Assembly: GCF_001186125.1 (NCBI RefSeq)
Contig: NW_014039825.1
Location: 1 to 42,532 of the forward strand
Reading direction: 5' to 3'
From: Sphaeroforma arctica JP610
Lineage: Eukaryota
DNA length: 42,532 nt
The translations under genes were made by a program, and so were the position numbers. This document shows positions 15,859-42,097 of the stretch, piece by piece. Position 1 is the stretch's first letter; each line of letters begins with the position of its first letter. Under the pieces are notes generated by a model, which ran no database searches, had not been told where the DNA came from, and worked only from the letters and a program-made list of their open reading frames with translations.

Positions 15859-15921
15859 GCATCGACATCGTCGGGGACAATCTCGTCCTCTGTAATAGCC
15901 GGGCCTCCACATTAGACTCTA

Positions 15922-16627
15922 TGTTATAAACGTACTCTTAAGCAGTACGTATATTTAAAAAGTACTCTTAATAGTACAAGGAACTTAAGTTTCCTAAATG
16001 GTTTTTAATGGTTTTATTAATTAATACCTTTTCCATTTTACATATCAGATATTTGGACGAGGCCATTAAAAGGCCCCAGTAAAATACCAACCATAAGCGA
16101 ACTATATTTACTTTCCAAATCTATTTATATATGAATACTTCGGTAGCGAGATGGCTCAACCGAATATAGGTTTCCAGGGACTATTAACGTTACCTAGTTT
16201 ATCCTCCGATCAGCCAACCAGATGTGCCAGTCTGATGAAGGATAAGTCGGTAATTCTTGATAAGTGGCAAGTTATTGGATAATGCAATAACTAAGGACAT
16301 CAAGAGTATTTTTCTTTTTTCTTTTATTTTTTTTTAAAGATAGGATTTTATGAGTCTCTCAGATTCGCCCCAACGAAACATACCCTAGTGTCTAATAGAG
16401 CGACAATGAAACACTAATTCAGCGAAAACAGTACTGAGAGGACTATATATAGGCAATGTCTCAGCCTCACAATCCCTCAGAGTATTGCTGTTTTCACGAG
16501 GCATACCTAACTTTACTAAAAGTCTCATTTCGTTTATTTACTTTGATATTTTCACGATACTTAGAATTTACTTACGCGTTTAATTATTCTAAGGCGTTAA
16601 TATCGCCTTGAGAGACCGAATCTTACA
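15922..16627 (+). mobile_element. 5' LTR of family B copy 1
   Basis: Begins TGTTATAA (start inferred). Ends GACCGAATCTTACA, an end shared by the copies at 19789, 20014, 34844(-) and 35331. TATA-like motif at ~16444. Confidence 0.75.
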
Positions 16628-16753
16628 CATTTTAAAGTTAGCAAAGGTATTAATTACTTAAACTACTTAAACGTAAAGGTAGAAAACTACCACAAATTTT
16701 TTCTTGTCCAAGCTAGTCCTTAAGAGACAAGCTAGCAGTCATAAGTTAAGATT

Positions 16754-17608
16754 GTGACCAAGCAAGACAATACTCCTTGTAAGAAGCGTAGAGCTGAAAA
16801 GAAGAGGATGGAGAGAGACGCCGCTGCTGCTGCCGCATTTAACGCGACCGCAGAAGAGGACAATCAATCCGTAACCGAAATCATTGCTGCTGGTATTTAT
16901 AACCAGGACAATACAATAGATAAGGATGAAGACTTTCCATTAAGAGAGAAGTCCCCTGAAGAAAGAGCCCGCGGGCCAACTATTGCGTCTGCTTCGAAGC
17001 TTACGTTTACGAAGCCAAGAAGCCACGCAAAAGGATCGGTTAAGACGATCCCTACCAAACCTGATGAGGACAATCAGAAGGATCTAACTCCAATTACGGA
17101 GAAAGGAGACAACCCGCTCGAGGGAGAGGATGAGAAGGAAAACTTAGAGAGCCGACCCGAATCAGAATCAAACCAGCCATCGCACATAAGTAAGTTGATC
17201 GATGAGAACACTAAACTTAAGAATCATTTAGCCGCTCTTAAAAAGCGAATGACCTCGCAGGAGAAGGTGGTTGTTAAGAAACCGCGGGAGCAGACCGATC
17301 AAGGGTATGTATCCAGGCAGACCTCAAACGAGAGACCCCAACATACACGTCCACGTGAATCTACCCAATTTATACGCCCTGTTAAGAAGGTGCGTGCGGA
17401 GCACAAGGAACCTGCATACAAGCAAGTTAAGAACTGTGCTGATGAGAAATGTGGTTATGACATGTACCAGTTAACCTCTATCGGTTACTGGAACGGAAAG
17501 CGTGCCCAATATTGTAGACACTATCTTACAAAATGCGATAAATGTGAGAAGACCAATGGCTACCACACTAAATCGTGTAACGTCAGACCCGACATTAAAT
17601 TGGACTGA
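16754..17608 (+). CDS. Gag of family B copy 1, with an in-frame internal deletion
   Basis: Homologous to both ends of the 32561-34711 gag but lacks its middle; C-terminal knuckle CDKC-x6-H-x3-C; GTG where copy 3 has ATG. Confidence 0.8.
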   Translation: MTKQDNTPCKKRRAEKKRMERDAAAAAAFNATAEEDNQSVTEIIAAGIYNQDNTIDKDEDFPLREKSPEERARGPTIASASKLTFTKPRSHAKGSVKTIPTKPDEDNQKDLTPITEKGDNPLEGEDEKENLESRPESESNQPSHISKLIDENTKLKNHLAALKKRMTSQEKVVVKKPREQTDQGYVSRQTSNERPQHTRPRESTQFIRPVKKVRAEHKEPAYKQVKNCADEKCGYDMYQLTSIGYWNGKRAQYCRHYLTKCDKCEKTNGYHTKSCNVRPDIKLD

Positions 17609-19166
17609 CGATACTACCGGGTACAATCGTTACAAAGAAAATACAACGACTCTTTAGACGAGCGTGTAATAATACCTGTATATTGCAATGAAAATAGAAT
17701 CCTTGCGTTGATTGATCCTGGTTCAGAAATTTTATTTATATCCGATCGCTTTGCATTAATGAAAGATATCGAAAGGAGAACACAAACAACTCACTTCATT
17801 TTAGCTGATGACAAAACTTTTAAGTGTGATACGATGGCCACAAATGTTAAAATCTCCCTGGCCGATGACAGGAGTATCACTACCCAAGCTGTGATAGTTA
17901 AGATGTCACAGAAGTACGACATTATAGTCGGAATGAGCGATTTACTCACTCTGGGTGTAACCGTAGCTGGTTTACCGAATAACATAGATCCATTATAGGA
18001 TCAATCATACGATAACTGTCTGAATCAATATAAGCCCCCGTCAGACACAGTCAAGGCATTCATACTTGACTTTGCGAACAAAATCATATATCTGATTCTG
18101 GTTAATAAGAAGATAAAGATCACAAATTGGGGCAAAATTCCGTTTTATCGACGGATATGTCAGCCTTGACTTAACCAAGGTGGACTTTACACAGTTGAAG
18201 TGTCCCTCAAGGAACTATGTATCCTGGAGACACGAGGCTGTGGTAAAAGAACAAGTTGAGAGACTACAGATCTCAAGCAAGTTTCAATAGCAAGAAAACT
18301 CTTTTTCTTGAATGAAATCACAAGAGTTGCGTCACTCCGAAAAGCGGATCAAATTATTAACCACATCGTGTTAATAATACTTTTGCTCCTATGAGAGCAT
18401 TGCTCCGAAAGCCGATAGCTAGGAGAGAATTGCTATGAAAGCCAAGCAACATTAATTGATCGGCGTAAGAGCGAGTAGCAGATATTATGCTATAGAACAA
18501 TATCTAAGTGTTAAAGTGTTCTGCAAAAGGTTTCTCATATTGACCATATGATTTGTCACCCTGGCCAACCCAAGCGGTTGAACACTAGCACAAACACCAT
18601 GAGTATAAAACCAAAGGTGAGGTTGTAAATAAAGATATACAATTATACTTTATTCAAAGACTACCATCTTACACTCTAACACAAGTTGAGAAATGGCTAG
18701 CAGATGGAGTGATAGAATTTATCTATCAACAGACGCCAGTTAACTTGGCATTGCTAGCTGCAGAACAACATAACTCTGACGGATCGTTTAAGAAAGTCAG
18801 AGTATGTTTAGATATGAGTCCGATAAATAAAATTTTACCGACTAATAGCTTTCGCCTACCTCGTATTAACGAGCTACTGCGAAGGATGGAAGGTGCTACA
18901 GTATTTACAACTATAGACCTTACACAAGGATACCATCAAATGCAGATATATGAACCACATCGTAAATACTTTAGTTTTACGTCGAAAGGTAAACAATACC
19001 GGTTCAGAGGTGCACCTTTCGGTTACAATCTTTACCAGCATTCTTCTAACAAGTAATGGAGGAAATGTTTGCAGACATGCCTAACGTGCAAGTCTATATA
19101 GATGACATAGTCATCTTCTCTAAAACTAAGGGCGAACACGCCGCATTAGTCAGACGAGTCCTTAAG
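17609..19166 (+). pseudogene. Pol fragment of family B copy 1 (protease and RT), interrupted by a solo LTR and truncated
   Basis: ILALIDPGSE; KYDIIVG; KKVRVCLDM; FTTIDLTQGYHQM; APFG; VQVYIDDIVIFS. Confidence 0.9.
18257..18681 (+). mobile_element. Solo LTR (family C1) inserted in the RT of B copy 1
   Basis: TG...CA, 425 bp, with 5-bp TSD CAAGT (18252-18256 and 18682-18686); removal restores EQVEKWLADG; TATAAAA followed by AATAAA. Confidence 0.88.
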
Positions 19167-20014
19167 TACCTTTTCCATTTTACATATTAGATATTTGGAC
19201 GAGACCATTGAAAGGCCTCAGTAAAATACCAAACTTAAAAGTTGGTCTAGTTCTATTAATAGAACTATATTTACTTTCCAACTTTATTTATATCTGAATA
19301 CTTCGGTAGCGAGATAGCTCATCCAAATATAGGTTTCTAGTGACTATTAACGTTACCTAGTTGATCCTCCGATCAGCCAACCAGATGTGCCAGTCTGATG
19401 AAGGCTAAGTCGGTAATTCTTGATAGTGGCAAGTTATTGGTTAAGACAATAACTAAGGACATCAAGAGTATTTTTTCTTCTTCTTCTAAAGATATGATTT
19501 TATGAGTCTCTCGAGTTCGCCCCAGTGAAACATACCATAGTTTCTAATAGAGCGACAACGAAACACTAAATAAAATCCCTTCGGCGGAAACAGTACTGAG
19601 AGGATTATATATAGGCAATTTCTCAGCCTCACAATCCCTCAGAGTATTGCTGTTTTCACGAGGCATACCTAACTTTACTAAATGTCTTATTTCATTTATT
19701 TACTTTGATATTTTCACGATACTTAGAATTTACCTACGCGTTTGTTTATTCTAAGGCGTTAATATCGCCTTGAGAGACTGAATCTTACACATTTTAAAGT
19801 TAGCAAAGGTATTAATTACTTAGACTACTTAAACGTAAAGGTAGATTAACTATCACAATTTTTTTTCTTGTCCAAGCTAGTCCTTAAGAGACACTTCTTT
19901 GATGTGGCGTCACCGTTTAACTTGCTCTATCCATTAAAGGATAAGATTATAATTTACCTACGCGTATATCTATTCTAAAACATTAGTATCGCCTTTATTA
20001 GACCGAATCTTACA
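19167..20014 (+). mobile_element. Heavily deleted family B relic: partial LTR (to 19789), leader, ~55-bp integrase scrap and LTR 3' end
   Basis: Repeats ~16025-16728; ~19892-19946 encodes HFFDVASPFNLLYPLKDK, matching the minus-strand integrase at ~20520-20575; ends GACCGAATCTTACA at 20014. Confidence 0.8.
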
Positions 20015-20046
20015 ACCTGATACTCTGCTATCTTCTTGGTAGTGTT

Positions 20047-21312
20047 TCAACGCTTTTGCCTTTTTAATAAGGCTATATTGCGTATTTCTCGCAAGCAAGG
20101 ATATACAACGTTATAAATACGTTGTACCTTCTCTAACCATGGTAACTCATGATGATCAGGTTCGTCCTTGTTAAAGGGTATTTGTAACTCACTATATCTG
20201 CCACGAAAATAGTGAGCGGGTGTAGTTCCTGTGACCGGATCAGCACACTCATTCATTTATGTTTGTACTCACTTACGCTGGTACGGCCAATCATCTGCAT
20301 CATCCGTTAATGCAGTACGCACGAAGAACTTAAGTTTTCTATGGCGCGTTTCATTACGCGCCTTGCGTTTGCGGCTCATATGGCACACCTCTCTTATGGC
20401 ATATGCCTGATACGAGTACTAGCGATTTCATATTGTCACCGCAGTACTCACTACCGTTATCAGTGCACATATTACCGTCAGCAAAGACTTGGTAACATAC
20501 TTCTGCCACGGTCTGCGTATTCTTATCCTTTGATGGATAGAGCAAGTTAAACCGTGACGCCACATCAAAGAAGTGGCATACGTAACGGTCGCCTGTGTGC
20601 TCGGACGTGGGCAGGTCAACCAGATCAATGATGACCCTGCGCCATGGAACATCTTCAGTCACACTCTTAAGCGGTGCAAAACCATAGCGCTTGATCTGAT
20701 TGAGATCACAGTCTGAGCATGACTGGTATACTCTGTCAACTAAAGTTGCCAGCTTAGGGTGCGCGATCCCATTTCGCTTAACATCTTTAAGTGCGTCTAC
20801 TACGTTCTGATGCTTCAGCTTATGGTTTTGCGTCAGCCAAGCAAGAATGTTTTTATCATTCTGCTCCTCCAGAATAAAGGTAGGGTGTTGAGAATCCACT
20901 TGCGTGGTCTCTAAGTCTGTAGTGTTTTCAGACTCCTGTCCTGCTTTTGCATGAGCGTCATAATCGCGCTCATGTGCGTCGGATACACCTGACTTATTAA
21001 ATAGTCGCATTATATGTATATATGCTTCAGGATTGTCTTTCATTAATCTCTTTAAAAATAAGGTTTGAAAGACCTCGGGCTTGGACTTTATGTTATTAAA
21101 CAGAGTCCTAGCTAGAGATTGGCGCTTCTTAACAGTGTCAATAGTAGATTGAATTTCTTGTGCACAGACGTTAAATGCTGTGTTGCCTTTGAACTGCTTA
21201 ACGTTCAATTTGGTAGGTAGTGGAATCTCTGATTCTTTGACCTTGTTAAGGAAGGTCTCATAAGGGGTACATTTGGTTGTTCCAATGGGACCTACACGAC
21301 ATAAAATAGTTT
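20047..21312 (-). pseudogene. Linker and DDE integrase of B copy 3
   Basis: QNHKLKH...CSDC zinc motif; PWRRVIIDLVD; CTDNGSEY; PYEPQTQGA; frameshifted C-terminus. Confidence 0.9.
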
Positions 21313-21332
21313 NNNNNNNNNNNNNNNNNNNN

Positions 21333-21605
21333 AGCCATGGATCTTTACTCCGTAATGGGCAACACAACGTGATGGTAGCTTCATATATATGAACATAATT
21401 TAATAGCTGGGCAATTAACTGCCATGGTGGATTAGCCCACGCATTATGTTTGGAGAGGTCTATTTGAAAGGCGTCTCCCATAGGATGATTTAAAGTCCTG
21501 TAATTTGATAGTTGTGCATTATGATGTGCAGCAAACATATCTATGGTATGTGGCCCATATCTCTCTTAAGCCAGTTCAAACCACCTGGGATTACTTCCAG
21601 TCAGT
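21333..21605 (-). pseudogene. Dam-like (N6-adenine/amino) DNA methyltransferase domain within Pol of family B
   Basis: TDWK..NPRWF...YGPHTIDMFAAHHNAQL...GDAFQIDLSKHNAWANPPWQLIAQLL...ATITLCCPLRSKDPW; NPPW at 21422-21433; C-terminus runs into the N gap at 21313-21332. Confidence 0.85.
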
Positions 21606-22044
21606 GGCTAGTAACTCACGTACGGATTTATTAAAGTCCGGTACGAAGCGTGATAACATATCCGGTAAATGGTTATGTATACCTGGCAAATGTTTTATAT
21701 CAAAATGAACCTTTGATATTGTATCATGCCAGCGACTCAGTAATTGCGAGTCGGGTTTCATCTCTTTCATATATTGAAGATATTTCTGATCACACATCAG
21801 CGGAAATGCTGTTCCGTATAAGTAATCTTGGAAGTATGTCAGAGCTGCCACTATGGCTAATAGCTCTTGTTTAACAGTTGGATAATTCAACCGTGAAGCA
21901 TTCATTGCTCGACTAAAGAATTGTATATATCTAGGTTTGTTATCTATAACCTGATATAATACTCCTCCTAAGGCTAAGTCTGATGCGTTCGTTGCTATTT
22001 CAAACGGCACGCCATCGACTGGCCCTTGTTCAACTGGGGTTTGT
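21591..22044 (-). pseudogene. RNase H of B copy 3
   Basis: FEIATNASDLALGGVLYQ; NYPTVKQELLAIV; HLPGIHNHLPDMLSR. Confidence 0.92.
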
Positions 22045-22295
22045 TGTGGTCAGAATACTATAGTACGTAGTTTATTTGATTATTTTAGGTCTAATATAAA
22101 TTTTACAGTTTATCAGAATAATCATATAAACTGGGTTTTAGGGTTTTGCTGTTCTTACAGCACATAACTGATGACTCATTTTGAGAGTCATTAATCTTAG
22201 GATTACTGTTTACAATTATTATTATATGAACAAACGTCCCCCTCCCTGAGGAGGGAGAACGTTGAGATATAGTTACTCGACGTGTACTTACTACA
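22045..22295 (+). repeat. 5' LTR of element D
   Basis: 251 bp; about 8 substitutions and 1 indel relative to the 3' LTR by manual comparison. Confidence 0.96.
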
Positions 22296-25208
22296 TTTTT
22301 AACTATACTTTGGAAAGTTGTTAGTTTATTAATAATTGTAAAATAAGCTATTTTATTTAAGCTACTTGATAGTATTAAATTGAAATGTATTAGTTTTTAT
22401 ACGAACAAAGAACTTTGAATGTAACAGCAGAAGCAAGATGGAGCAGCAAGATGACGAGATCGCTAGAATCTACCGACGGAGGAGGTCGATAGAGGCTCTA
22501 CTAGCAGTGACGCTAGTGCCAGGATACCGTCCTTGCTGTCAAATAGTGACAGCGGCCCGGTAGAAACACAGAAACACAGATATAACAGAACCAGTCAAGA
22601 GGATCTGAAGGAATCAATCGACGCTTTAGGCTAAGTAGAACTAGTATGGCTAGGCAGTTAGAAAGGTTCAGGCTTTCTCAGCAAGTAGATATTATTCCTA
22701 GAAAGCAGCAAACATTATCAAACAAAGACACTACAACTGAACACGAGGAGCTATCGAAAGAATCGGAGGGATCGAAATCAGCAGAACAGGAGCGAAATCA
22801 GAAGGTCCGGAGGGATTAAGACGGCAAAGACAAGGGCTCAGACAACGAACAAGATAAGTAACAACAATAACTAAGAGTAGTTCTAGTAGTGGTCGAAACT
22901 ATACGGTTAGAGATACAAGTAGTAGGGCAGTAGTTAAACCAGAACCCTACTATAGACACGTACAGACTAGAAGAACAAGCTTGGTTAGTTAAGACAATTG
23001 TTGGAGGTAAAATTTCGTTCGAAACAGGTAAATAGAGTCAGAAAAAGTAGATTTTAGAATGTTGAACAGATAAATATTTAAGAGAAGATATAAGATAGTA
23101 GTGCCTACGTTAGGTAGGGCTAAAAGTGATAACATTACAAACATTATAGACCCACGCCAGATCTAGACAAAAGCAAACTATAGCAATGATATCCTTTGTA
23201 GAAAACATGGGGGTAGGAATAAGGATAAACATACCACCTGCACATAGAGGCTTAGAACGAGTAGATTTACAGTAAGCGAGTGGTTTCAGACGAGCTAACA
23301 TTCTATTCCAGTCGTTGCAAGAAACTATAGCTCAACACACTCACAGAGAAGTGGTCTACCGAGAGAAGGGCCATGGACGAGAACCAAGAACAATACTAAG
23401 AAACATCTGCCTTAGGAGACTTCGGGCAACGGGACGTACGAGGGCAATATTAAGTAGAGTCTAGTTGCATAAGAGAGGGATCGGCAGAGCCAGGAAGGCC
23501 TATATGGAGCCATCATGGGTTGCTTACCACAATGGCACATGTTGGAACACGGAAGAATAAATCAGCGACATACGGGGAGCAACACAAGAGCTGAAAAGCC
23601 TTCTCAGGAGCAAAAGGAGTTCACTGAAGAGAGATGTGACTCCACCAGAAGAATGGAGAAGCACACAAGGGGGTAGGGTGAACCCCGACGGGTACTAAAA
23701 CATAAATACATATAACATATGCATTGGCTAAAGACAGGCGCAGGATTCATGGGTGAGTTGATACTGCGGCAAGGGACGAAATAAATTGTCTAAGTAAGAA
23801 TGTCGAGATTTGTTGAGAAGGGCGTCGAACCTCTAGGACGGGGAAGTATTTATACCCGAACTATTTTGAGGATGACTGCATACATTCCAAACCTCCATTA
23901 CATTACATTACATACCTATTATGTCCAACACACGTCAAAGCCGCCGACAGCAACGCCTAACCCCTGAACGTCGAGAGGATGATGATATAGACCAGAGAGA
24001 GACCAAGCGCTACCAACCTTCAACGAATCATCCCCACCATCGATCTGAGACAGGGCGGAGGGATACTCAGGATGACGAGATCCATAACCAGGAAGCAAAC
24101 TTTGATCGACAGATACCTACGGCAACTAGGGGCGAACCTAGCCTTACAACGGAAGACGTAGCACAGAACGACGAGGCCAAGGGATATTCCGACCTGCGCG
24201 CGGACAGGGAACAGTCCATTATTAGTGAACAGGTAGCCAGTAACGTACTGCCTCCTCGTTCGTCTTCGGGTATCTCAGGCGCCTCATCCTCTGTTAATGG
24301 GCAACCACGCCTCCCACCTAACAAGCGGAGACGTTATCGACGTCGCCCCAGCAACAAGGGTACAACGCGGGAGCAGCTGTCAACACAAAAGCTCACCGAG
24401 CTCATGGCTCAACAACAATCGCTGTTGGAGAAGTATGAACAAAGATTGCAACGTACGGCTTCGGAGCGCCCTACGACATTGTTGTCTCCGCACGCCCCAT
24501 CTACTAGTTCACACAGACAAGGGCAGACAACACGAAGCAGGGAGAACAACCCTACGTTCCGAATACTAGGTCGTTCACAACCACATTATGGCCTTGGATA
24601 CGAGTCACCAGAGTCGGAAGGACAACCCTCTGAGGAGGAAGAGACACTGTCATCCAGGGAGGCAGCGCCATCATTCCAGGAGTTGGTACGCGAGCAAGTG
24701 TTGGCCAAACGGAACCCACACGGGCAGGAGGCACTCAAGACTAAACAAGACCAGATGAGTTCGACATATCGCCAACACCAACAACGTCAGCTGTTCGAGA
24801 AGGAATCCGCTAGTGAGTATGTACAGAACCTCGACGTACGGAGACCACATTATGCACACCAACGGCGAGTGGGCAAGAACAATCTTCGAAGCCAGCGGAG
24901 ACAACGATGCCCACACCTCCTTCTACAACGGCGAGTATTGAAAAGAGCCGCCAGGTGTTACACGACGTATACTACACTTGAGCGACGAACTATGCCAAGC
25001 TATAGAGGATGACAACACGGCTCGGGCTGAAGCCCTTAGGGGTGCGATTGAGACACTCCGAGCCACGCTAGAGGCCCGACCGGTGGAGAAACGTCCATTA
25101 CCATCACCACGGACATGGCCGGACTGGCTTTCGAACAGATATCACCTCCATGATATCATGGAACGTGATACGAGAGGGGCTCTACTGGAGGCTTTTAAGA
25201 ATGCGCAG

Positions 25209-25636
25209 ATCGCAGGGTTAGACGAAAGTTCGAACCTCACATGGTGTCACAAGGTGTTATCTTACTTTAAAGCGGAAAAGTCCACATTGGACTACATACG
25301 CGACAACTCTGAACAATTGAAGATGTGGACCCCAGTAGGAGGCGTATTTTTATATGCGTTAATAACGTTGTACGTCGTCAGCCCGAGAGTAATTTGGGAC
25401 TTGTTCTCAAATTAATATAAGTATCGCAGGGTTAAACGAAAGTTGGAGCCTCACATGGTGCCACAAGGTGTTATCTTACTTTAAAGCGGAAAAGTCCACA
25501 TTGGACTACATACGCGACAACTCTGAACAATTGGATATGTGGACCCCAGTAGGAGGCGTATTTTTATATACGTTAATAACGTTGTACGTCGTCAGCCCGA
25601 GAGTAATTTGGGACTTGTTCTCAAATTAATATAAGT
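25209..25636 (+). repeat. 214-bp tandem duplication spanning the gag/solo-LTR junction
   Basis: 25209-25422 is repeated at 25423-25636 with few changes. Confidence 0.93.
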
Positions 25637-25978
25637 ATAGGTGGGTCAGCCTGAGAGAACGTAAGAGTAATTTGAGACTTCTTCTCAGATTATTCTATTT
25701 ATAGGATACGGGCCACCGGCTAGCCGAGAGCCGAGGTCCGAGACTGAGTGTGGTAACAGAGAATATGATATATTTATTTCTAAAAAATATATCCGAGTGC
25801 TAAAGTGTTCTGCATAAGGTTTCTCATACTGATCATATGAGTTTTTACCCTGGCCAACCCAAGTGGTTGAACACTAGTACAAACACCATCAGTATATAAC
25901 TGAGGGTGACATCATAAATAAATTCATTCGAATGCACCATACTTTAGATACACTAGCACTTTACTATTAGTCCCCACA
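25538..25978 (+). mobile_element. Solo LTR (family C2) inserted in the gag of D
   Basis: TGTGGAC...GTCCCCACA termini, 441 bp; shares a ~105-bp core with 18507-18611; TATATAA followed by AATAAA; no TSD visible. Confidence 0.75.
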
Positions 25979-26837
25979 CCGCACGCTCGAGACGCAAGCC
26001 ACTGTGGATCCCGCATTTCGCAAGCTTGCCAAGGGTCACAGTCGTAATATGCACATTCCTATTATGGAACAGATGACACAGCTGATGGAGAACCATAGGA
26101 GGGCACGTGAACGGTGCCAGACGGATACAGATTTTCAGCAGAACCTACTAAACCATTGCATAGTTCAACTGTTAGAGGAGGCTCTCAACTGCCGTACGTA
26201 CGAACGCACTTTACAGTTGCATCCCAAATGGCAGTTGATGAAGACGCATGAGCTTATCCAGTTGTTAAGTCCCGACATCCAGGACACGCAGCAACGCACT
26301 ACGGCACGTACACAAAACCGTAACAATCGCGACGGATCACAGAGGAATGGGGCTCGTGATTATACCAATAGCCGCCCCAACCCGCAGACGACGCGACAGC
26401 AGGCACAAAACTGGGCACAGCGACCACAACCGACAGCACCTACTACATGCGCTGGATGTCAGGCACAAGCTCCACCAGGGGCGCGTCATATTCCACGCTG
26501 TCATCATTTCCGGGTAGTTCCACCAGGAGGTGCGGAGGGCAGGACATGTTCGTATGACAACAACCGGGCATCACGAGACACACAACCAGCCTATAGACCA
26601 CCCGCAACCCGAGCCTCAGGGCAGGGTAAGGTTACTAACCCGAGCAGAGAATTGGCTACCTCTCGCCCGACACCTCAAGTACAGGTGAACGCGATTACGT
26701 CCAAGGACAGTTTCGTACCACCGTCGGCAGCGACAGAGGTACATATCAATACGATACTCACGGAAGACTTCGACCCTACAGCGATGGAAACAGACCAGGA
26801 CCAAGGTGATTGGGAGTCGGTGAACGACCAAGCATGA

Positions 26838-28740
26838 GAGGTGAGGGTGTCTGATTCGGATAGGAGCTTCACATTTGTTAACACTATTAGGGACGTAATG
26901 GCGATACAGGACCCATTGCTGTCGTCTGATAGCCGTGTTTGTATCCAAGTGCAAGTGAACGGACGGATGTTCAAGGCACTAATCGACACGGGAGCAAACA
27001 GAAGCTGTATCTCACAGACATCCGCAGACCTCCTCGGCCGCCCGACAACTCCAGCACCACCTGGGTCATTCATATATTTAGCTGACAAGGCGGTTCGAAC
27101 TCCTCGACTGGGGACGACGGAAGTGGTTCCTATTCGGTATGGGTCCAAGATCATTGACGGGTCACTAGAACTAATGAATTTACCAACGGGGATAGACGTT
27201 ATAGTGGGACAAGACATGTTGAAGGGTTTGGGCCTATACATAAGAGGTATTCAATCTCCACTCGCGCCTATCAACCATACAGAACTCGACGAGCTCCTCG
27301 AACCAATCCCTCGTCGACAGGCGCCGAACACAGCGGAACCTGCCGATGCACGACAACGACTCACGCGGGACTTAGAAACGAACGCAAATATTGCTGACAA
27401 CGCACGTTGTCGCCTGGAAGGGAGTGAGGTTACTATTCCGGTAACCCGCGAACAGGCGATGCATATGCGCAAATCAACGGGTAACTTCGTATCCGACCGG
27501 AGGCTACCATACGTAGACGAGCAAGTACAGAAGTGGTTGTCGGACCTGGTAATAACGAAGCGGACGACACCAACGACGGTTAACCTTTCGCTCCTCACGG
27601 TCCCGATGTTTGATGCAGAGGGGAATGTGAAGAAGGTACGCGTGTGCTTATATATGCGGGCGGTCAACGCCCTGATCCCAGGCGACCAGTTCTTAATTCC
27701 CAAGGTCAACGAACTGATCTCTCGCCTCAAGAGTAATAAGTACTACACCACGCTGGACATATCGGCTGCTTATCATAGGCTACCGATCCATCCTGACTCA
27801 CAATATCTCTTTAGTTTCACTCACGAGCGTTACCAGTACTCGTTTACCTCAGCGCCGTTTGGACTACACGTACTCACACAACAGTTCCAGCGAACCTTGA
27901 GCACGATACTGGATGGCTTACCGGTCCATCACTATATCGACGACATCGTGATCGTGACTATGACGAACATATCGAGACGGTGTGGAAAATGATTCAACGC
28001 TTAACATACCACAGTTTCAAGCTCAACCCTGCCAAATGCCACTTTGCCATTTCGGAAGTGATGATCCTAGGAAAGAAGGTGTCGGCTAAGGGCATAGACA
28101 TCGATCATGGGAAACAGCGAAGCTTATTGACTGGCCTACCCCACTACGGTACAAAGATATAGCTTCTGCCTTAGGGTTGGCGAATTATCTCCATGAGCAT
28201 CTCCCTAACTTTGCGAAAATGGTTGCACCGTTGCGCGAATTTTGCAAGCTCAAACCGAAAGAGTTGATCGGCGACCGATGGGAGGAAAGGCACGCACTAG
28301 CGTGGCAAGCCATGAAGGATGCTGTGGTTAATGCGGTCGTTTTGCACTTTCCGGTCGACGGTATACCCTTGAACTTGGAAACCGACGCGAGCGACTACGG
28401 TTTGGGGGGAGCGCTATTCCAATGGGTCGACGGGAAGAAACACTATTTAATGTTATTTAGCAAAACTCTGAACCACGCCCAACAAAACTATGCCACATCA
28501 ATGAAGGAGTTACTCGCCCTAGTATATGGTCTCACACATTTTTAGGGAGTATTTGGATGGACAACGGTTTGCAGTTTTCACCGACCACAAGGCCCTGGTA
28601 TATATGAACACACAGCTTAAGCTTAACCCGATGCTTCAGAGATGGTACCACATCATCGCGCAGTTCAACTTCACCATATCACACATACCAGGAGAGACGA
28701 ATGTGCTACCGGACATGTTGAGTAGAGTGCATGAGGGAAT
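26838..28740 (+). pseudogene. Protease, RT and RNase H of element D
   Basis: KALIDTGANRS; YTTLDISAAYH; APFGL; HYIDD; LETDASDYGLGG; KELLAL; FTDHKAL; NVLPDMLSR. Confidence 0.95.
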
Positions 28741-28769
28741 AGCGGAGCAGGACGAATCTGAAATACTGT

Positions 28770-29180
28770 ATCCGGATTGTTGGCAGTTATTCCCTAGTTA
28801 CTTTTAACAAGCGCAACAACACTTCGGTCCGAACGACGTAGATGTATTTGCAGATCCACCCAACGCTCAGCTCCCTAGATTCTGGACTAAGGACGAGGGA
28901 GAAGGCGCGTTTGCTCAAGACTGGTCGACAGTTGACGGATGGATGAACCCACCTTGGAAACAGATATATAGGATGTTACGCAAGATACGAGCAGACGGCG
29001 CACGGGCAACGGTATGTTTGCCATGGATACCAAGAGCACCATGGTTTGACCTGTTCAAGCAGTTATTGCAAACAGATCCACTATTGGTCCCACGAACACC
29101 CCATACATTCCTCAAGCATGCCAAGTACGCCTGCGGGAAGACACCTTGGGGACATACGGTAGTAGCACGGGTGAATCGGG
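28770..29180 (+). pseudogene. Dam-like (N6-adenine/amino) DNA methyltransferase domain within Pol of element D
   Basis: DCWQLFPSYF*QAQQHFGPNDVDVFADPPNAQLPRFWT...AFAQDWSTVDGWMNPPWKQIYRMLRKIRADGARATVCLPWIPRAPWF; same frame as the RNase H end apart from one TAA at 28805; NPPW at 28946-28957. Confidence 0.88.
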
Positions 29181-30620
29181 GTTCAAGTTGGACCCCCTGT
29201 TTTCACAGCGACTTGGGTATGCAGAACCAAAGCACATAGAGTATATCATGTGCTTAGATACAGCGCGCGAAATCTCAGTGGCAATTGCGGACGCCGAAAG
29301 TCAACCAGCGTTTGAACGGGCGACTCCGGCAGAGCAACAGCGACGCACACGGCTTACACAAGCGCAACATGAACAGGGACATCATGGGGCAGCGGACACA
29401 GTCCAACAACTCCGTCAGGACGGTCATGTATGGCCTGGGGCACTAGAATTAGCCACAGAGGTAAAGCAGCAGTGTGCCACGTGTTTGGGCCAGGTTACGC
29501 TTCGTAAAGGCTTCCATCCGATGATTAGTATTGACGCACGCTATCCATGGGACCACATCCAAGTGGATTACAACCCAATGCCACTGGAGTCCAGACGCAA
29601 GAACAATTATATACTTCACGTCTTGGACATCGCCACTGGCTACTCCGTCCTCCGAGCCACACCGGAGAAGACGAAGGAGACCACGGCACAGACACTCGTA
29701 GAGATTTTTGGCGAGCATGGTTTTCCACGGCTGATCCATACGGACATGGGGAATGAATTCACCAATAAAATAGTGGAGCGTTTGGTGCAAGAAGTGGGGA
29801 TGTTACATAAGGTGTCGCCACCACATCGACCCCAAGTGTTGGGCGCAGCGGAATGCCGTCATAAGGAAATTACATGTTCCATTAGACAATGCTGCGAGGC
29901 GGTTCCTCTACGTTGGGACGAACGCCTTCCGTTTACGATGCTGTACCAGAACTTCGGATATCCCGCCGCCATAAGAGTGCACCGTTCAGCGTATACTTTT
30001 GCCGCCGTCACGTCCCATTTGCCGATTTCACTGACGAGTTGCCTAACTCCCAGCCAATAACGAATGACACCTGGGCACAACGGTCAGACCAGTTGCTGGA
30101 TACCATCCTGCCGACTCTCCACCACATTACCAAGAAGTATACAGGCAAACTAACGAAGACATTTGATCGCCTGCATGCTCATGACTTGGTACACTTCGAT
30201 GAAGGGGACGTGGTTATGGTACGTTCAGAAGGCCGCACAACTAAGGCCATGCGGCCATTGTTTGGGCCATATGTTGTAAAGGCCAGACACGGGCAACGCT
30301 ATGAGTTAGCGAACAAAGATGGTTCCGTTCCGCCAGAATTCAAGGACAAACCGGTACGGGTGGAACTCCTTCGGTTGGTGCATAGACGCACAGACCCTCC
30401 ACTTAACGATAAATTGTGGACTGAAGGAGGTGTTGAGTTTCGCCACATTATTACATACCGTACAAATGATGAGACAGGGAAATTGGAATACCTGGTGAGA
30501 TGGCGGGAAGGCGAACCAACGTGGGAAACAGCGGAAGCATTTGATGATGCCAACGATATCGTGGCCTACCATAAAGCTTCGCAAACACGGACACGTAAGC
30601 ACCAACGCGCCCAAATCTAA
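29181..30620 (+). pseudogene. Integrase (HHCC, DDE, GPY/F) with C-terminal chromodomain, element D
   Basis: HEQGHHG...CATC; IQVDY; HTDMGNEF; GAAE; LFGPYVV; chromodomain EFRHIITYR...LEYLVRWREGEPTWETAEAF; one frameshift at ~29955. Confidence 0.93.
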
Positions 30621-30685
30621 TGTTAATTATCTGACGACCATTTGGTCGAACGTTACGTTCGAACCGTGATTTTCGAGCCCTCCAG

Positions 30686-30778
30686 CTCTCAGAGGTTAAA
30701 TGCCAGCGCACTGCTCTAGCTCTCAGAGGATAACTGCCAGCACACTGCTCTAGCTCTCGGAGGATAACTGCCAGCACA
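30686..30778 (+). repeat. 34-bp tandem repeat (~2.7 copies) in the 3' UTR of D
   Basis: Unit CTCTCAGAGGATAACTGCCAGCACACTGCTCTAG. Confidence 0.88.
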
Positions 30779-30852
30779 TAAGGTACTTTATAATTTCTTA
30801 TCATCTCTGAAACTGGCACACTGCTTCGGCCAGTGTTTCAGTTTGGGGGGGT

Positions 30853-31102
30853 TGTGGTCAGAATACTATATTACGTAGTTTATTTGATTATTTTAGGTCT
30901 ATTATAAATTTTACAGTTTATAAGAATAATCTGATAAACTGGGTTTTAGGGTTTTGCTGTTTTTACAGCACATGACTGATGACTCATTTTGAGAGTCATT
31001 AATCTTAGGATTACTGTTTACAATTATTATTAAATGAACAACGTCCCCCTCCCTGAGGAGGGAGAACGTTGAGATATAGTTACTCGACGTGTACTTACTA
31101 CA
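30853..31102 (+). repeat. 3' LTR of element D
   Basis: 250 bp, preceded by the polypurine tract GGGGGGG (30845-30851). Confidence 0.96.
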
Positions 31103-32560
31103 TTGTTGGACTGCATGTTTGAGCGCTTTAAACGCGTCATCATACTCTTTAGTCCACAAGTCTCCTAGTTTGCCTTTATGACATCTTAAGTGTCCAAAAG
31201 GTTTAAGGTAGTCGGCTAAGTGTGGTACTCCATCTGAAAAGAAGTTTATAAACCCACACATGCTGTTAACATCTCTTCCTGTAGTTGGTGTTCGCCAATC
31301 TAACAGGTGTTCTACCTTACCGGGGTCGATTTTAATACCTTCCCCAGATATATGGCAGCCTAAGAGCTGTATTTCGCTCATTGCGAAGTGGCATTTCTTC
31401 TCGTTAATTTTGAAGTTTTTTTCATTGAGTCTCTTAAGGACTCGTCTGACTAATGCGACATGTTCGCCTGTAGTCTTAGAAAATATGACTATGTCATCTA
31501 TATAGACTTGCACGTTAGGCATGTCTGCAAACATTTCTTCCATTACCTGTTGGAAGAATGCTGGTAAAGAGTGTAACCCGAAAGGTGCACCTCTGAACCA
31601 GTATTGTTTGCCTTTCCACGTAAAGCTAGAGTATTTACGGTGGGGTTCATATATCTGCATTTGATGGTATCCTTGTGTAAGGTCTATAGTTCTAAACACT
31701 GTGGCACCTTCCATCCTTCGCAGTAGCTCGTTAATACGAGGTAAGTGAAAGCTGTGAGTCGGCAATACTATATTTATTGGACTCATATCTAAACATACTC
31801 TGACTTTCTTAAACGATCCGTCAGAGTTATGTTGGTCTACGGCTAGCAGTGCCAAGTTAACTGGCGTTTGTTGATAGTTATTTTCTATCACACCATCGGC
31901 TAGCCATTTCTTAACTTGTTCATTTACAACAGCCTCTTGTCTCCAGGATACATAGTTCCTTGAGGGACACTTTAACTGTGTAAAGTCTACTTTGGTTAAG
32001 TCAAGGCTGACATATCCGTCGTTAAAGCGGAATTTTGCCCAATCTGTGATCTTTATTTTCTTATTAACAAGAATCAGATCCATGATTTTGTCCGCAAAGT
32101 CAGGTATTAATGCCTTGACTGTGTCTGACGGGGGCTTATATGTATTCAGACAGTTATCGTTTAATTGATCCTTTAGTGGATCTATGTTAGTTGGTAGACC
32201 AGTTACGGTTATGCCTAGAGTGAGTAAATCACAAATTCCGACTATAATGTCGTACTTCTGTGACATCTTAACTATCACAGCTTAAGTAGTGATACTCCTG
32301 TCATCGGCCAGGGAGATTTTAACATTTGTGGCCATGGTATCACACTTAGCAGTTTTATCATCAGCTAAAATGAGGTGAGTTGTTTGTGTTCTCCTTTCGA
32401 TATTTTTCATTAATGCAAAGCGATCGGATATACATGAAATTTCTGAACCAGGATCAATCAACGCAAGGATTTTATTTCCATTGCAATATACAGGAATGAT
32501 TACACGCTCATCTAAAGAGTCGTTGTATCGTCTGTGTAACGATTGTACCTGGTAGTACCG
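31103..32560 (-). pseudogene. Protease and RT of B copy 3
   Basis: ILALIDPGSEIS; KKVRVCLDM; IDLTQGYHQM; APFGL; VYIDD; KCHFAMSEIQLLG. Confidence 0.95.
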
Positions 32561-34711
32561 TCACTCCAACTTAATGTTGGGTTTTCGGTCACAAGACTTG
32601 GTGTGATAGCCATTGGTCTTCTCACACTTGTCACACTTAGTAAGAAAGTGTGTACAGGTGGATGCATGTCTACCATTCCAATAACCGTTAGGGGTTAACT
32701 GGTACATGTCATATCCATTTTGGGCGTCGGCACATTTCTTAATCTCCTTAAATGGAGGTTCCATGTCCTTCGCTCCTGCTCGTGCCCGTTTATTGGGTCG
32801 CGTGGATAAAGTGGATTCGCGAGCACGTGTTTGTTGGGGTCTCTCGTTTGAGGTCTGCCTGGATACGAACCCGTGATCGGTGAGCTCCCGTGGCTTCTAA
32901 ACAGCCGCTTTCCCCTTCGATGTTACTCGATGTGCAGGAAGAAGAGTGGATACAGTATCATAAAACTGTTCCCATGTAAGTCGGGATAGATGAAACTTTG
33001 TTTCATGTCTCTTGTCTCGAGCCTCAGTTGCGTGTTTACGTCGCAACTCGGTGTACAGACTCTCACGGTCGTCATTCCCTATGTTCTTACCGAACACGTG
33101 CATAACCAGGAATTTGTACCATCGCTGCGCCTTGTTCTTTTTTATATCTGGACGTTTCAGGTCAGCATCTAGCTTCAGAATATAACTCTGAATGGGCGTG
33201 TTCTCAGCTGGTTCATTTAAAATTGAACTCAGCCCAGGGCTACGCATATCCTTACTTAACAAGGATGTGACCAACCAACAAACTGCTGGCCAGTAGCGAC
33301 AAGCGTCTAGCTCATGCTGGTGTCGCTTCAGGATCAGATAACTGGTACCTGTAGGGTCAAATGTCTGCATTGAGGCAGAGATCCATTGCTGGGGAGCGAT
33401 ATCATTCGTCTACAGCATGACCGTAAACGCATTAAGTGTACGAGTTAGCGTGTCGAGGTCATGGTTGTTTATAAACTCGACCTGCTTGCTGTTGGCATCC
33501 CAGTTCGACTTAAGTCGACTGATCTGTCCCTTGTACTTCTGGTTGTCCTTGTGGTCTTGTCCACGTTGGGCCTGAAGTAATTGGTCTATGTGCTTTTGCT
33601 TAATCGCAATAATATTTGCATAGTATGCTACGTCACCAGCATGATGCGCAGCATGGGTGACTTCCATTTTATTGGTATAGTCGTCGACCGATTTATTAAG
33701 GTCAGTCACCTCGTCAAAGTGGAAATCCTCTGCGGGTTGGTGTAAAGCTGTGCGGTCGAAGCGATTAAACTCGACATCGTTCACACGTCCACGGGGATGA
33801 TTAATATCCTTTGGTGTCGGAATAACATACCCAGTCTTAACTGGTTTCCGACGACTATCCTCCCAATTCGGTACAAGTGGCGGAGTATATCTCCTTATCT
33901 CTCGGTCTACAATACCTTTGAGGACAGGAGACTCACGGCCGGGTGTCAGAACAGGCGAATGATTAGCCTGTTCTTCTGGCAGTAATGCCTCGTACGGTAT
34001 ATCGACGCTGTGCACCTCTGGATCATATGACTCATGTGTCGAGCTTGAGTCTTTGGGCGTAATTGCCTGTCGACGTTCTGTCCACTTCTGTAGTGCTTCA
34101 GTAATGCACGGGGAAACATGCTCGCGTAAGCGCTGTGTATGTTTTCCTGATCTATCTAGTTGATCTACATGTTCGACAGTCAAGTCTTTCATAATAGTAG
34201 TTAACTGATTCTTAAGATCAGCGTATTTAGTAATTAACTTACTTATGTGCTTCGGCTTAGAAATCTCGGACGTAGATTCGGGTTTGCTACTTGAGGTTGC
34301 CTCCTCTTCTGGTTCCATAATAGGTTCCTTCTGAGATTTGTCCTTGTCCCCTATAATTGGGGACGCCCTCATAATTGGGGTCTTTCCTTTCTGATTTTCG
34401 TCAGAAGAATGGGTTTGGGCGTCTTGAGACGTATCCCTTGTCTCACTTTTTGGCTTCGTTAATGCAAACTTTGAAGTTGAGGCAATAGTTGGCCCTCGGG
34501 CTCTATCAATGGGAGTAGTCTCCTTAAGCGGAGCGGCTACATCCTTATCTGAAGCATTGTCCTTTTGACTATTATTGTCAGAGGCAAGTACTTCGGCTAC
34601 AGTGCGGTTAAACGCATCAGCAGTAGCTGCGGCAGCGCTAACGACTTCTCTCTCCATCTTCTTCCTTTCAGCTCTACGCTTCTTAGAAGGAGGGTTGTCT
34701 TTCTTGGTCAT
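32561..34711 (-). pseudogene. Gag of B copy 3
   Basis: ORFs 33410-34711, 32897-33370 and 32561-32764; knuckle CDKC-x6-H-x3-C. Confidence 0.85.
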
Positions 34712-34843
34712 AAAATTAACTTATGACTACTAGCTTGTCTCTTAACGACTAGCTTAGACAAGAGAAAATAAAAGTTGTGTTAGTTAACTTACCTTTACGC
34801 TTAAGTTGTCTAAGTAATTAATACTTTTGCTAACTTTAAAATG

Positions 34844-35331
34844 TGTAAGATTTGGTCTAATAAAGGCGATACTAATGCCTTAGAATAAACAAACGCGTAG
34901 GTAAATTCTAAATATCGTGTAAATATCGATATAAATAAAAGAAATGAGGCGTTTAATAAAGTTAGGTTTGCCTCGTGAAAACAGCAATACTCTGAGGGAT
35001 TGTGAGGCTGAGACATTGCCTATTTATAATCCTCTCAGTACTGTTTCCGCTGAAGGGATTTTATTTAGTGTTTCGTTGTCGCTCTATTCTGGGGCGAATC
35101 CGAGAGACTCATAAAATCATATCTTTAGAAACTTACTTATTGTCTTAACCAATAACTTGCCACTATCAAGAATTACCGACTTCATCAGACTGGCACATCT
35201 GGTTGGAATATCGGAGGATCAACTAGGGAACGTTAATAGTCCCTAGAAACCTATATTCGGTTGAGCCATCTCGCTACCGAAGTATTCAGATAATAAGGCG
35301 TTAATATCGCCATGAGAGACCGAATCTTACA
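34844..35331 (-). repeat. Partial 5' LTR of B copy 3 (34844-35292), abutting a plus-strand LTR-B 3' end (35294-35331)
   Basis: Reverse complement of ~16130-16627, followed by TAAGGCGTTAATATCGCC...GAATCTTACA in the opposite orientation. Confidence 0.85.
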
Positions 35332-35335
35332 CTTA

Positions 35336-36735
35336 TTCATTATTCAGACCTTGTAGCTTTTTCATATATTGTTCAAACCCGACAGGGTTATGATATGCCT
35401 ATCTATCAAAGTCTAGGTGGTCCCAGTTTTAGCCAGCATGAGAAAAGGTTGTAAATAAATCACATGTAAACCCCATTTATATTCCATTGTTGATATCCTT
35501 CACGCAGCACTCCTGAACTGCGTTGATACAGTCCAATGGTCTCCACAGTATTAAAAGTACCATAGAAACATATNNNNNNNNNNNNNNNNNNNNNNNNNNN
35601 NNNNNNNNNNNNNNNNNNNNNNNNNNNNNNNNATGTGTGTGTGTGTGTGTATGTGTATGTGTTAAAAACTAAAGCAATGTAAATCATAGGATGAAATATT
35701 GTGTGAAATATAGCAAGTATAACTGATATATTACTAACATACCATGTAAAGAGCACCGCAGTGGCGCAGCATAAACGATTTTAATCTCCCAAACGCAGTT
35801 TCTATGAGATTCAGGTATGGTCTATATGGCGGGATGAAAAACACTCCCGCTCCCACGGATTCGATAAGCTCTACTACATCTGCGCAATGTATAGCAGTGT
35901 TAAATCACAATGCTCCGCGGCAAAGACCACGGATAGAGATAAGGCAGAATTTGTTGCCGGAAATGATTGTAGAAAGTCGTAGAGTCGTATGTCCCCATAG
36001 TTAGTGCTCAGGCCAAAAATCCAGATAGGTCGCTAGCTGCCAACACGCTAACACGGTTACCACGGTTACCACGTTCGAATGGACTTTTCGCGATTATCTT
36101 CTGTCCTTTCGGGCCATTGCCACGTTTCCGAAACGTTGAGCGAGCATCGCGGGATGCCTCGTCGACGAAGACCAATTGATTCATGTTACTATATACCTGT
36201 TCATTTAAAGTAAAAGAGATAGTCAGAGCACTGAAGAAATTTATTTAAGTATTTAGTATATTGATACTTCCCATAGACCATAAATAATAGTTAAGAACAA
36301 AATATACCTTACCCACGATAGACAGGTAAAGAAATCCAATTGTACTTCAAATGAAGCATATCTGACAGCCTTTTCCATTACCTGCCTCGTATACTTCAGG
36401 TCGAACTTCAATATGCGAAGTATAGTGGTATATGATATCGTATTTCCTCCATTGTCAAGTTGTACTTGTTTCTGGAGTTCATCGAGATGTATTGCTGGAT
36501 TAGCTTTATGAATGGCCTCAACTTGGGCTATTAGTTCTTTGGTTCGCAACAAATCATCTCGCATCTTTTTTTGTTTGGTCACCTACACAGGACACCCGGT
36601 GTTTAGCCATGTTTTGACTATTCTACGTGTTGAACTCTCTGAAACTCTCAAGAATAATCGTATGTCATCGTAGGTAAGATGGTAGTAATACCAAGCGGAA
36701 ATAACCAGCCAGGCTACATTCTCCGAAATCGTCAT
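35336..36735 (-). pseudogene. Intron-containing IS630/Tc1/mariner-type transposase relic
   Basis: HTH-like N-terminus; IHLDELQKQV...ISYTTILRILK; LVFVDE; FFIPPYRPYLNLIETAFG; FSHAG tail. Phase-0 intron 36312-36197 (GTAAGG...CAG) and a second donor GTATGT at 35742. Internal stops. Confidence 0.82.
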
Positions 36736-41354: not shown

Positions 41355-41399
41355 CCACCGCCAACTTCAGAGAACACCAACTTAGTCCAGCTGCTGCCA

Positions 41400-41841
41400 C
41401 AATCAGAGCTCAGTTTTATATACGTAAACGAATAAACAAACATATTAGTATATAGTGTATTTCAGTCGTTGCATCAATCAGAGCTCAGTTTTATATACGT
41501 AAACGAATAAACAAACATATTAGTATATAGTGTATTTTAGTCGTTGCATCAACCAGAGCTCCGTTTTAAATACGTAAATGAATAAACAAACTGATTAGTA
41601 TATAGTGTATTTCAGTCGTTGCATCAATCAGAGCTTCGTTTTATATACGTACATGAACAAACAACCAGATTAGTATATAGTGTATTTCAGTCGTTGCATC
41701 AATCAGAGCTCCGTTCCATACACGTACATGAACAAACAAACAGATTAGTATATAGTGTAGTTCGGTCGTTACATCAATCAAAACTCCGTTCCATAAGCGT
41801 ACATAAGCAAACAAACGTACTTGTATATAACATATTTCAGT
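41400..41841 (+). repeat. 75-bp minisatellite, ~6 copies, diverging toward the 3' end
   Basis: Units start at 41400, 41475, 41550, 41625, 41700 and 41775 (CAATCAGAGCTC...). Confidence 0.95.
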
Positions 41842-42097
41842 TTTTTCTGCAGTTCGTGTTTATAAGCACGTGCCACAACGTCAAGACCTGCTCTATGTAT
41901 CTGTTAATATCACTACAGATTCCAACCCGCGGATTATTAACTAAGTGGCTATATATTTATGAACCACCGATGAAGCAGCACACTGATATGAACAACCAAT
42001 CATTCGCAAGCGATTCAAGTAGCCAGAGACGTGTGTACTCTCCGCATGGCTTATATATTGCCACCGGTTTAGCCTTTGCCTGCGTTCACAACTTTTA

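What the first reader, a model, noticed from the sequence alone, without database searches (positions are those of the whole stretch)
28740..30620. Integrase-type Ty3/Gypsy element carrying a Dam-like DNA methyltransferase plus a chromodomain in Pol
Seen: a ~135-aa domain lies between the RNase H end (NVLPDMLSR) and the HHCC integrase. It reads W-x-L...FGP-x-DVDVFA-x3-NAQL, AF-x-QDW, WMNPPW and LP-W-x4-PW. Known: this pattern matches the phage-Dam-like methyltransferase that follows RNase H in DIRS tyrosine-recombinase retrotransposons, and (D/N/S)PP(Y/F/W) is the catalytic motif IV of amino-methyltransferases. Canonical Ty3/Gypsy Pol is PR-RT-RH-INT with no such domain. Element D has direct LTRs, a TSD, a PPT and a DDE integrase, so it is not a DIRS element. 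Inference: a retrotransposon lineage that may write 6mA (or 4mC) on its cDNA or insertion site while reading chromatin through a chromodomain. I cannot confirm that this is unpublished. This copy is disabled by stops and frameshifts.
Basis: partly seen in the sequence, partly recalled or inferred. Interest (0 to 1): 0.92.

Follow-up and report, generated by a model that had tools for sequence, protein, structure and literature searches.

The report
Dam-methylase gypsy element with hidden chromodomain
This is a broken copy of a gypsy-type jumping gene, likely from the animal-relative protist Sphaeroforma, that carries a phage-like adenine-methylase domain, a design described in a 2026 preprint, and also a divergent chromodomain that the preprint says this lineage lacks; the methylase is predicted to mark new copies so that they stay switched on.

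Summary
Observation confirmed. A 9,058-bp Ty3/Gypsy element (LTRs 242/250 identical, 4-bp target duplication) encodes PR-RT-RNase H-Dam-integrase-chromodomain. The Dam domain passes Pfam PF05869 (38.3 bits, cut-off 28.1) and keeps NPPW. The stop inside it is private to this copy, and 20 of 30 scanned relatives hold RNase H-Dam-integrase in one frame. Its RT groups away from DIRS-type RTs.

The architecture is not new: bioRxiv 10.64898/2026.05.21.726589 describes DAM-LTRs, including an ichthyosporean lineage in Sphaeroforma arctica, the likely host. This scan also met DAM-LTRs before on other DNA.

What appears new: the preprint's text says that lineage lacks chromodomains, but this element and its clade, including an Abeoforma whisleri protein, end in a divergent chromodomain. 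It falls below Pfam's cut-off, matches retrotransposon chromodomains profile-to-profile (98%), and is under purifying selection (26 silent of 40 listed changes). In this element two of three methyl-lysine cage residues are missing.

Likely mechanism: Dam marks the cDNA with 6mA for host upkeep, and the chromodomain tethers integrase. Both are untested here, and the preprint's E. coli assay was negative. A new variant of a known kind; modest interest.

The parts
22041..22044 (.). left copy of 4-bp target-site duplication
   Evidence: empty-site joint skipping 9062 = 9058+4 bases in contigs of 2 of 4 runs
22045..22295 (+). 5' LTR (TG..CA, 251 bp)
23921..25415 (+). likely N-terminal part of gag, in two frames
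   Evidence: other copies join 25334 to 25988; no Pfam hit; inference
25335..25987 (.). stretch absent from other copies, holding part of a 214-bp tandem duplication and a highly repeated piece
25971..26837 (+). likely gag C-terminal part with a Cys/His motif, ending in an in-frame TGA before protease
   Evidence: no Pfam hit
26943..27224 (+). aspartic protease (DTG at 26985)
   Evidence: Pfam gag-asp_proteas 37.3 bits
27500..28160 (+). reverse transcriptase (YIDD at 27933), frameshifted
   Evidence: Pfam RVT_1; best PDB match Ty3-G, E 4.7e-16; tree
28279..28726 (+). Ty3-type RNase H, frameshifted near 28540
   Evidence: Pfam RT_RNaseH_2 82.3 bits
28775..29176 (+). Dam-like amino-methyltransferase domain (DxFA at 28841, NPPW at 28946); stop at 28805-28807 private to this copy
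29335..29484 (+). integrase HHCC zinc finger
   Evidence: Pfam Integrase_H2C2 E 3.4e-4
29545..29860 (+). integrase DDE core
   Evidence: Pfam rve 43.9 bits
30264..30272 (+). GPY motif of the integrase C-terminal region
   Evidence: motif name recalled
30432..30578 (+). divergent chromodomain: central W kept (30501), first and third cage aromatics missing
30845..30852 (+). short polypurine tract (seven G)
30853..31102 (+). 3' LTR (250 bp)
31103..31106 (.). right copy of target-site duplication
20017..22040 (-). 3' part (RNase H, Dam, integrase) of the related DAM-LTR element E into which this element is inserted; E continues at 31107 to about 35300

Best explanation
This is a dead copy of a Ty3/Gypsy DAM-LTR retrotransposon, likely from Sphaeroforma arctica, whose Pol carries a Dam-like domain between RNase H and integrase and ends in a divergent chromodomain; in intact copies the Dam domain likely methylates adenines on the element's own new cDNA, and the chromodomain likely tethers integrase to chromatin. 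Shown here: the domain order, its in-frame conservation in relatives, the Ty3-side RT placement, the kept NPP(W/F) motif, and purifying selection on the chromodomain. Inferred: Dam is packaged as part of Pol and acts on the cDNA or RNA-DNA hybrid; after integration the host enzyme AMT1 would maintain 6mA and keep the copy transcribable (the preprint's model). Inferred: with two cage aromatics missing, the chromodomain would bind chromatin in a way unlike HP1, as plant group II chromodomains are thought to. My odds: identity and architecture about 0.95, chromodomain real and family-wide about 0.9, active 6mA writing on cDNA about 0.45.
For: Pfam Dam 38.3 bits, above cut-off. 20 of 30 relatives scanned hold RNase H, Dam and integrase in that order in one ORF (chosen by me as top or long hits among 150). 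In all 4 laid runs nearly all depth at the first stop base reads another letter, and four indels seen in other copies have frame-restoring lengths. RT tree: DIRS-type rows form one side at 99/99, and this element sits in a 10-row clade at 96/93 with the Abeoforma protein P0012. Dam tree (quick, SH-aLRT 99): a 15-row clade with S. arctica SARC_07150 and P0012. NPP(W/F) is kept in 14 of 15 clade members. Chromodomain: profile-profile 98.2%, E 2.7e-14, against 0.2% for the reversed control; a clade HMM built without this element scores it 38.0 bits, best shuffle 9.0; 26 silent and 14 amino-acid-changing variants, 26.5% silent expected, p about 4e-7. The preprint reports more 6mA and more expression on DAM-LTRs than on other LTRs in S. 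arctica and A. whisleri.
Against: No activity is shown: the preprint's expression of DIRS, DAM-LTR and adintovirus Dams in dam-minus E. coli did not raise 6mA. The 6mA enrichment is a correlation that transcription alone might explain. The element shows no ApT excess (odds 0.96, against 1.02-1.05 in flanks). The Pfam match covers only positions 10-81 of the 169-position Dam model. The chromodomain is below Pfam's cut-off (22.7 < 25.1); only 5 of 9 clade relatives with a C-terminus beat the shuffle maximum with the canonical profile; I located those domains with that same profile, which makes partly circular. The species is inferred from homologues, not given.
Confidence: 0.6

Rival explanations
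1. The Dam domain is kept for another job: it methylates the element's RNA, makes N4-methylcytosine, or acts as a SAM- or nucleic-acid-binding module, and the 6mA on insertions is written only by host AMT1 after transcription.
For: The E. coli DNA assay was negative, and DIRS Dams thrive in hosts without 6mA. The (D/N/S)PP(Y/F/W) motif is shared by N6A and N4C enzymes (recalled). Earlier scan notes report DAM-LTR lineages that lost the motif yet kept the domain (not checked by me).
Against: The motif and the DxFA element are kept across the clade. DAM-LTRs co-occur with AMT1 in 9 of 13 species in the preprint.
Confidence: 0.3
2. The C-terminal segment is a vestigial or chance chromodomain look-alike with no function, so the element is an ordinary chromodomain-less ichthyosporean DAM-LTR as the preprint says.
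For: Below Pfam cut-off; no Pfam Chromo hit at E <= 0.01 in any of the clade relatives scanned; cage residues missing.
Against: Purifying selection in the right frame only; profile-profile match 98.2%; most of the 53 PDB sequence matches and all listed top Foldseek rows are chromodomains; it sits at the usual place after GPY.
Confidence: 0.07
3. The Dam domain comes from a DIRS fragment nested in a plain Ty3 element, or from an assembly chimera.
For: The region is full of nested, broken elements, and this copy is frameshifted next to the domain.
Against: RNase H runs into Dam in one frame here; intact relatives such as P0008 are colinear with the element over PR to chromodomain; the neighbouring element E has the same order; the Dam groups with LTR-borne Dams, not DIRS-type ones.
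Confidence: 0.02

Closest known systems
Ichthyosporean DAM-LTR lineage (Fernandez-Moreno et al., bioRxiv 10.64898/2026.05.21.726589; Pirum, Abeoforma, Sphaeroforma arctica)
   Same: Ty3/Gypsy organisation with a Dam domain and NPP motif; likely the same host species; groups with S. arctica and A. whisleri proteins in RT and Dam trees.
   Different: The preprint's main text says the lineage lacks chromodomains; this element and its relatives end in a divergent chromodomain.
Chlorophyta DAM-chromovirus-like clade and EpiLTRs (same preprint)
   Same: Dam plus DDE integrase plus chromodomain in one LTR element.
   Different: Host is not a green alga; the chromodomain is divergent, not canonical; no cytosine methyltransferase was found in the scanned ORFs. 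I had no named member of that clade to place in my trees.
DIRS tyrosine-recombinase retrotransposons (PMC3783388)
   Same: RT-RNase H-Dam (PF05869) order.
   Different: DIRS lack protease and DDE integrase and have inverted terminal repeats; this element has both enzymes, direct LTRs and a TSD.
Group II chromodomains of plant chromoviruses (PMC3350952)
   Same: Keeps the central W and lacks the first and third cage aromatics.
   Different: That 2012 paper reports group II only from plant Gypsy elements. Here the loop after W is also 2-4 residues shorter, and 5 of 9 clade rows keep the first aromatic, so the loss is likely independent.

Membership tests
Ty3/Gypsy LTR retrotransposon | Direct LTRs with TG..CA ends and a TSD | tested here: met
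   empty site
Ty3/Gypsy LTR retrotransposon | Pol order PR-RT-RH-INT with DDE integrase | tested here: met
Ty3/Gypsy LTR retrotransposon | RT groups with Ty3/Gypsy | tested here: met
   best PDB match Ty3-G; tree side with integrase-bearing Pols, 99/99; references are unnamed and labelled by architecture
DAM-LTR (preprint) | PF05869 Dam domain in a non-DIRS LTR element | tested here: met
DAM-LTR (preprint) | Asn-Pro-Pro catalytic pocket kept | tested here: met
DAM-LTR (preprint) | Methyltransferase fold | tested here: inconclusive
   single-sequence model pLDDT 37.8; Foldseek uninformative
DAM-LTR (preprint) | Raised 6mA on insertions or enzymatic activity | not testable with these tools
   no modification data; the preprint's assay was negative
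Ichthyosporean DAM-LTR lineage | Dam clade with Sphaeroforma and Abeoforma elements | tested here: met
   (quick tree, SH-aLRT 99); tied to the preprint's clade by species only, its sequences were not seen
Ichthyosporean DAM-LTR lineage | Lacks a chromodomain (as described in the main text) | tested here: not met
   hence filed as a variant of, or correction to, that lineage
DIRS | No protease or DDE integrase; inverted terminal repeats | tested here: not met
Chromovirus | Chromodomain at the integrase C-terminus | tested here: met
   (below Pfam cut-off)
Chromovirus | RT in the chromovirus clade | tested here: inconclusive
   nearest RT neighbours mostly carry canonical chromodomains, but no named chromovirus was in the tree; the TSD is 4 bp where 5 bp is common
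Group I (HP1-like) chromodomain | Three-residue aromatic cage | tested here: not met
   V at the first place, W kept, loop with the third deleted (column mapping is my inference, cage definition)

The most novel reading that the evidence does not exclude
The ichthyosporean DAM-LTRs are not a chromodomain-less, separately assembled lineage. They are chromovirus-like elements with a remodelled, cage-poor chromodomain, nested in a wider RT clade (96/98, 19 of 20 rows Dam-bearing) whose other members have canonical chromodomains. One ancient Dam capture would then underlie a broad RH-Dam-INT-chromodomain group, possibly opisthokont-wide, and the remodelled chromodomain would pair with 6mA writing to aim new copies at, or convert them into, active chromatin instead of heterochromatin.
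Probability: 0.3. Interest if true: 0.6.

Novelty: new variant of a known kind. Interest (0 to 1): 0.33.

Why it matters
DAM-LTRs are a newly described way in which retrotransposons may exploit host 6mA. The two species with 6mA and expression data in the preprint (S. arctica, A. whisleri) are the ones whose elements were said to have no chromatin reader. If those elements carry a selected, non-canonical chromodomain, then the 6mA enrichment on their insertions may come from where they integrate as well as from what Dam writes. That confound is testable in a culturable protist, and it changes how many independent Dam captures need to be counted.

Tried and rejected
No whole genome is held for this window, so copies could not be listed. 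Word-index homologue search with the Dam ORF among longer proteins: 0 of 60 candidates; with the integrase: 1 of 920. Related loci: 0 of 12 stretches in viral contigs and 0 of 103 in metagenome contigs. Exact look-ups: 1 of 7 and 0 of 10 window ORFs are in the collection. PDB sequence search with Dam: no meaningful match. The chromodomain model (pLDDT 73, strands then helix) gave chromodomains in all listed Foldseek rows but best E 0.045 and TM below 0.5; VIA-align best Z 3.6 with unrelated folds, inconclusive. No RNA holder was listed, so expression was not assessed. The careful Dam tree did not finish; the quick tree is quoted. P0123 was left out of the RT tree (no YxDD match), and DIRS-type fragments with partial RT were not entered. 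My 'noDam' label for P0101 was wrong: it holds a Dam remnant (39.4 bits). My 'canC' label also covers Dam-LTRs without a chromodomain hit (P0029, P0048). Hosts of the canonical-chromodomain relatives could not be named. Element E's 3' end is missing from the window, so its chromodomain could not be checked.

Full report
What is there. The finding lies in the 3' half of a 9,058-bp LTR element (22045-31102). Its LTRs are 251 and 250 bp, begin TG and end CA, and match at 242 of 250 aligned bases; a 4-bp duplication flanks them. The element is inserted into the RT-RNase H junction of an opposite-strand element, E. Removing the element and one duplication copy leaves E's frame phase unchanged, and contigs of 2 of 4 laid runs show the empty site as a joint skipping exactly 9,062 bases. 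Pfam finds protease, RT, Ty3-type RNase H, Dam, integrase zinc finger, integrase core and chromodomain in that order.

The Dam domain is real and belongs to the family. It scores 38.3 bits on PF05869 (cut-off 28.1) with the stop read as X, over model positions 10-81 of 169, and matches phage DNA methyltransferase PHROG 111. At the first base of the stop nearly all depth in all four laid runs reads another letter, and indels seen in other copies at four of the five Pol frame breaks have lengths that keep one frame; the break inside RNase H was not among the rows shown. A full HMMER search gave 332 proteins at E <= 1e-10. Of 30 top or long hits that I scanned, 20 hold RNase H, Dam and integrase in that order in one ORF. 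P0008, an intact 1,288-aa Pol, is colinear with the element from protease to the C-terminus. Element E has the same order. In a 15-row alignment of the nearest Dam domains the DxFA element, NAQ, NPP(W/F), P-x4-A-x-W and TPW positions are nearly invariant; 14 of 15 keep NPP(W/F), the exception being a decayed fragment. A nested DIRS piece or an assembly chimera is therefore excluded. A fold test was inconclusive, because the single-sequence model failed.

Ty3, not DIRS. DIRS elements lack protease and DDE integrase and have inverted repeats (PMC3783388, passages). The RT's best solved relative is Ty3-G. In a 50-row RT tree the 24 DIRS-type rows (labelled by architecture: RT, weak RNase H match, C-terminal Dam-like part) form one side at 99/99, and this element lies on the other, in a 10-row clade at 96/93.

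Host. The intact neighbouring gene at 39894-41351 is held by NCBI and EukProt. Its four relatives at E <= 1e-5 are one EukProt protein with a CFRG id (Creolimax; recalled), two S. arctica proteins and one weak unnamed match. The best Dam hit is S. arctica SARC_07150 (66%), and another near hit, P0012, is from Abeoforma whisleri. The host is thus an ichthyosporean, likely S. arctica (my odds about 0.9).

What is known. bioRxiv 10.64898/2026.05.21.726589 (whole main text read; figures and supplements not seen) describes DAM-LTRs, five lineages, chromodomain-bearing forms in green algae and Euglena, and an ichthyosporean lineage in Pirum, Abeoforma and S. arctica that 'lacks chromodomains'. It reports more 6mA and expression on DAM-LTRs in S. 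arctica and A. whisleri, a negative E. coli assay, and the model that Dam marks reverse-transcription intermediates for upkeep by AMT1. Three searches on the architecture returned only this paper; two on ichthyosporean chromodomains returned it plus papers on other holozoans and unrelated topics (listings). Most subscription journals and Repbase are not searched. Earlier scan notes found DAM-LTRs in at least three other genomes, none on this sequence or naming Sphaeroforma.

What differs: the chromodomain. Pfam gives 22.7 bits (cut-off 25.1), and no clade relative got a Pfam Chromo hit at E <= 0.01, which may explain the preprint's statement (inference; it states an E-value threshold of 1e-5). 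A profile from 11 Pfam-called retrotransposon chromodomains scores this element 21.3 bits and the Abeoforma protein 21.6, where 2,000 shuffles reach at most 7.4; 5 of 9 clade relatives with a C-terminus exceed that maximum, 4 do not. The clade's C-terminal alignment matches the canonical one at 98.2% (E 2.7e-14; reversed control 0.2%), and a clade profile without this element scores it 38.0 bits against a shuffle maximum of 9.0. The clade domains were located with the canonical profile, so this is partly circular. Independent support: most of 53 PDB sequence matches are chromodomains (best E 1.6e-4), and variants among copies are 26 silent and 14 amino-acid-changing among the 40 rows listed (5 more not shown), with 29 of 40 at third positions, against 26.5% silent expected; the other two frames show no excess. 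These variants are not independent events, so the p-value (4e-7) is only a guide. In this element the first cage position is V, the central W is kept, and the loop with the third aromatic is shortened. This resembles plant group II chromodomains (PMC3350952, passages). Five of 9 clade rows keep the first aromatic.

Wider context. The clade sits in a 20-row RT group (96/98) in which 19 rows carry Dam or a Dam remnant and most outside members have canonical chromodomains. The quick Dam tree puts the clade with 14 other LTR-borne Dams and one DIRS-type row on a 96-supported branch, but places P0030 among DIRS-type rows on a long branch. This fits one older capture followed by chromodomain remodelling, but hosts are unnamed and no topology test was run, so it stays a hypothesis (0.3).

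How it likely works. Shown: architecture, conservation and selection. Inferred: Pol carries Dam into the particle, where it would methylate adenines on the cDNA or hybrid; host AMT1 would keep the mark after integration, in hosts where 6mA goes with H3K4me3 and transcription (PMC12695648, passages). The chromodomain would tether integrase without HP1-like methyl-lysine reading. Against: the negative assay, no ApT excess in the element, and the possibility that targeting or transcription, not Dam, explains the 6mA. I put active 6mA writing on cDNA at about 0.45.

Other papers: PMC6338049 (passages) cites Dam only for DIRS polyproteins; PMC4007536 (passages) notes 5-bp TSDs as common for chromoviruses, whereas this TSD is 4 bp.

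Verdict. Real, correctly read, and mostly already described. The divergent, selected chromodomain in the ichthyosporean lineage is a small new point that bears on the preprint's interpretation. Interest 0.33.

Noticed in passing
window 19900-22040 and 31107-35300 (-): Element E, a second DAM-LTR family of the same clade (about 65% identical to intact P0009 in RT and RNase H), interrupted by the element studied; its Dam spans an N gap at 21313-21332 and its 3' end is missing.
   Followed up: partly
window 16025-19893 (+): Internally deleted relative of E with about 700-bp LTRs, keeping gag, protease and part of RT but no RNase H, Dam or integrase.
   Followed up: partly
window 114-793 (-): Protease-RT fragment 53-74% identical to P0008, a third family of the same clade in this window.
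   Followed up: partly
window 26835-26837 (+), 17606-17608 (+), about 32561 (-): In all three elements gag and pol are in the same frame, separated by one TGA; in two of them it is followed by CG. This suggests stop-codon read-through rather than frameshifting (context rule recalled).
   Followed up: no
window 39894-41351 (+): Single-ORF 486-aa host protein with a hydrophobic N-terminus and a predicted beta-helix fold; its close relatives are ichthyosporean, its structural look-alikes prokaryotic.
   Followed up: partly
window 4600-8600 (-): A further, much older LTR-like element with gag-, RT- and RNase H-like remnants, no Pfam hits in its ORFs and no NPP motif.
   Followed up: no
window 11828-12531, 15703-15870, 41308-41907: Tandem arrays with 30-, 21- and 75-bp units.
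   Followed up: no
window 36253-36582 (-): Weak Tc1-like helix-turn-helix match, possibly a DNA transposon remnant.
   Followed up: no
P0057, P0105, P0055: Hits with Dam at other places in integrase-bearing Pols: before RT next to an endonuclease domain (P0057, P0105) or after integrase (P0055).
   Followed up: no
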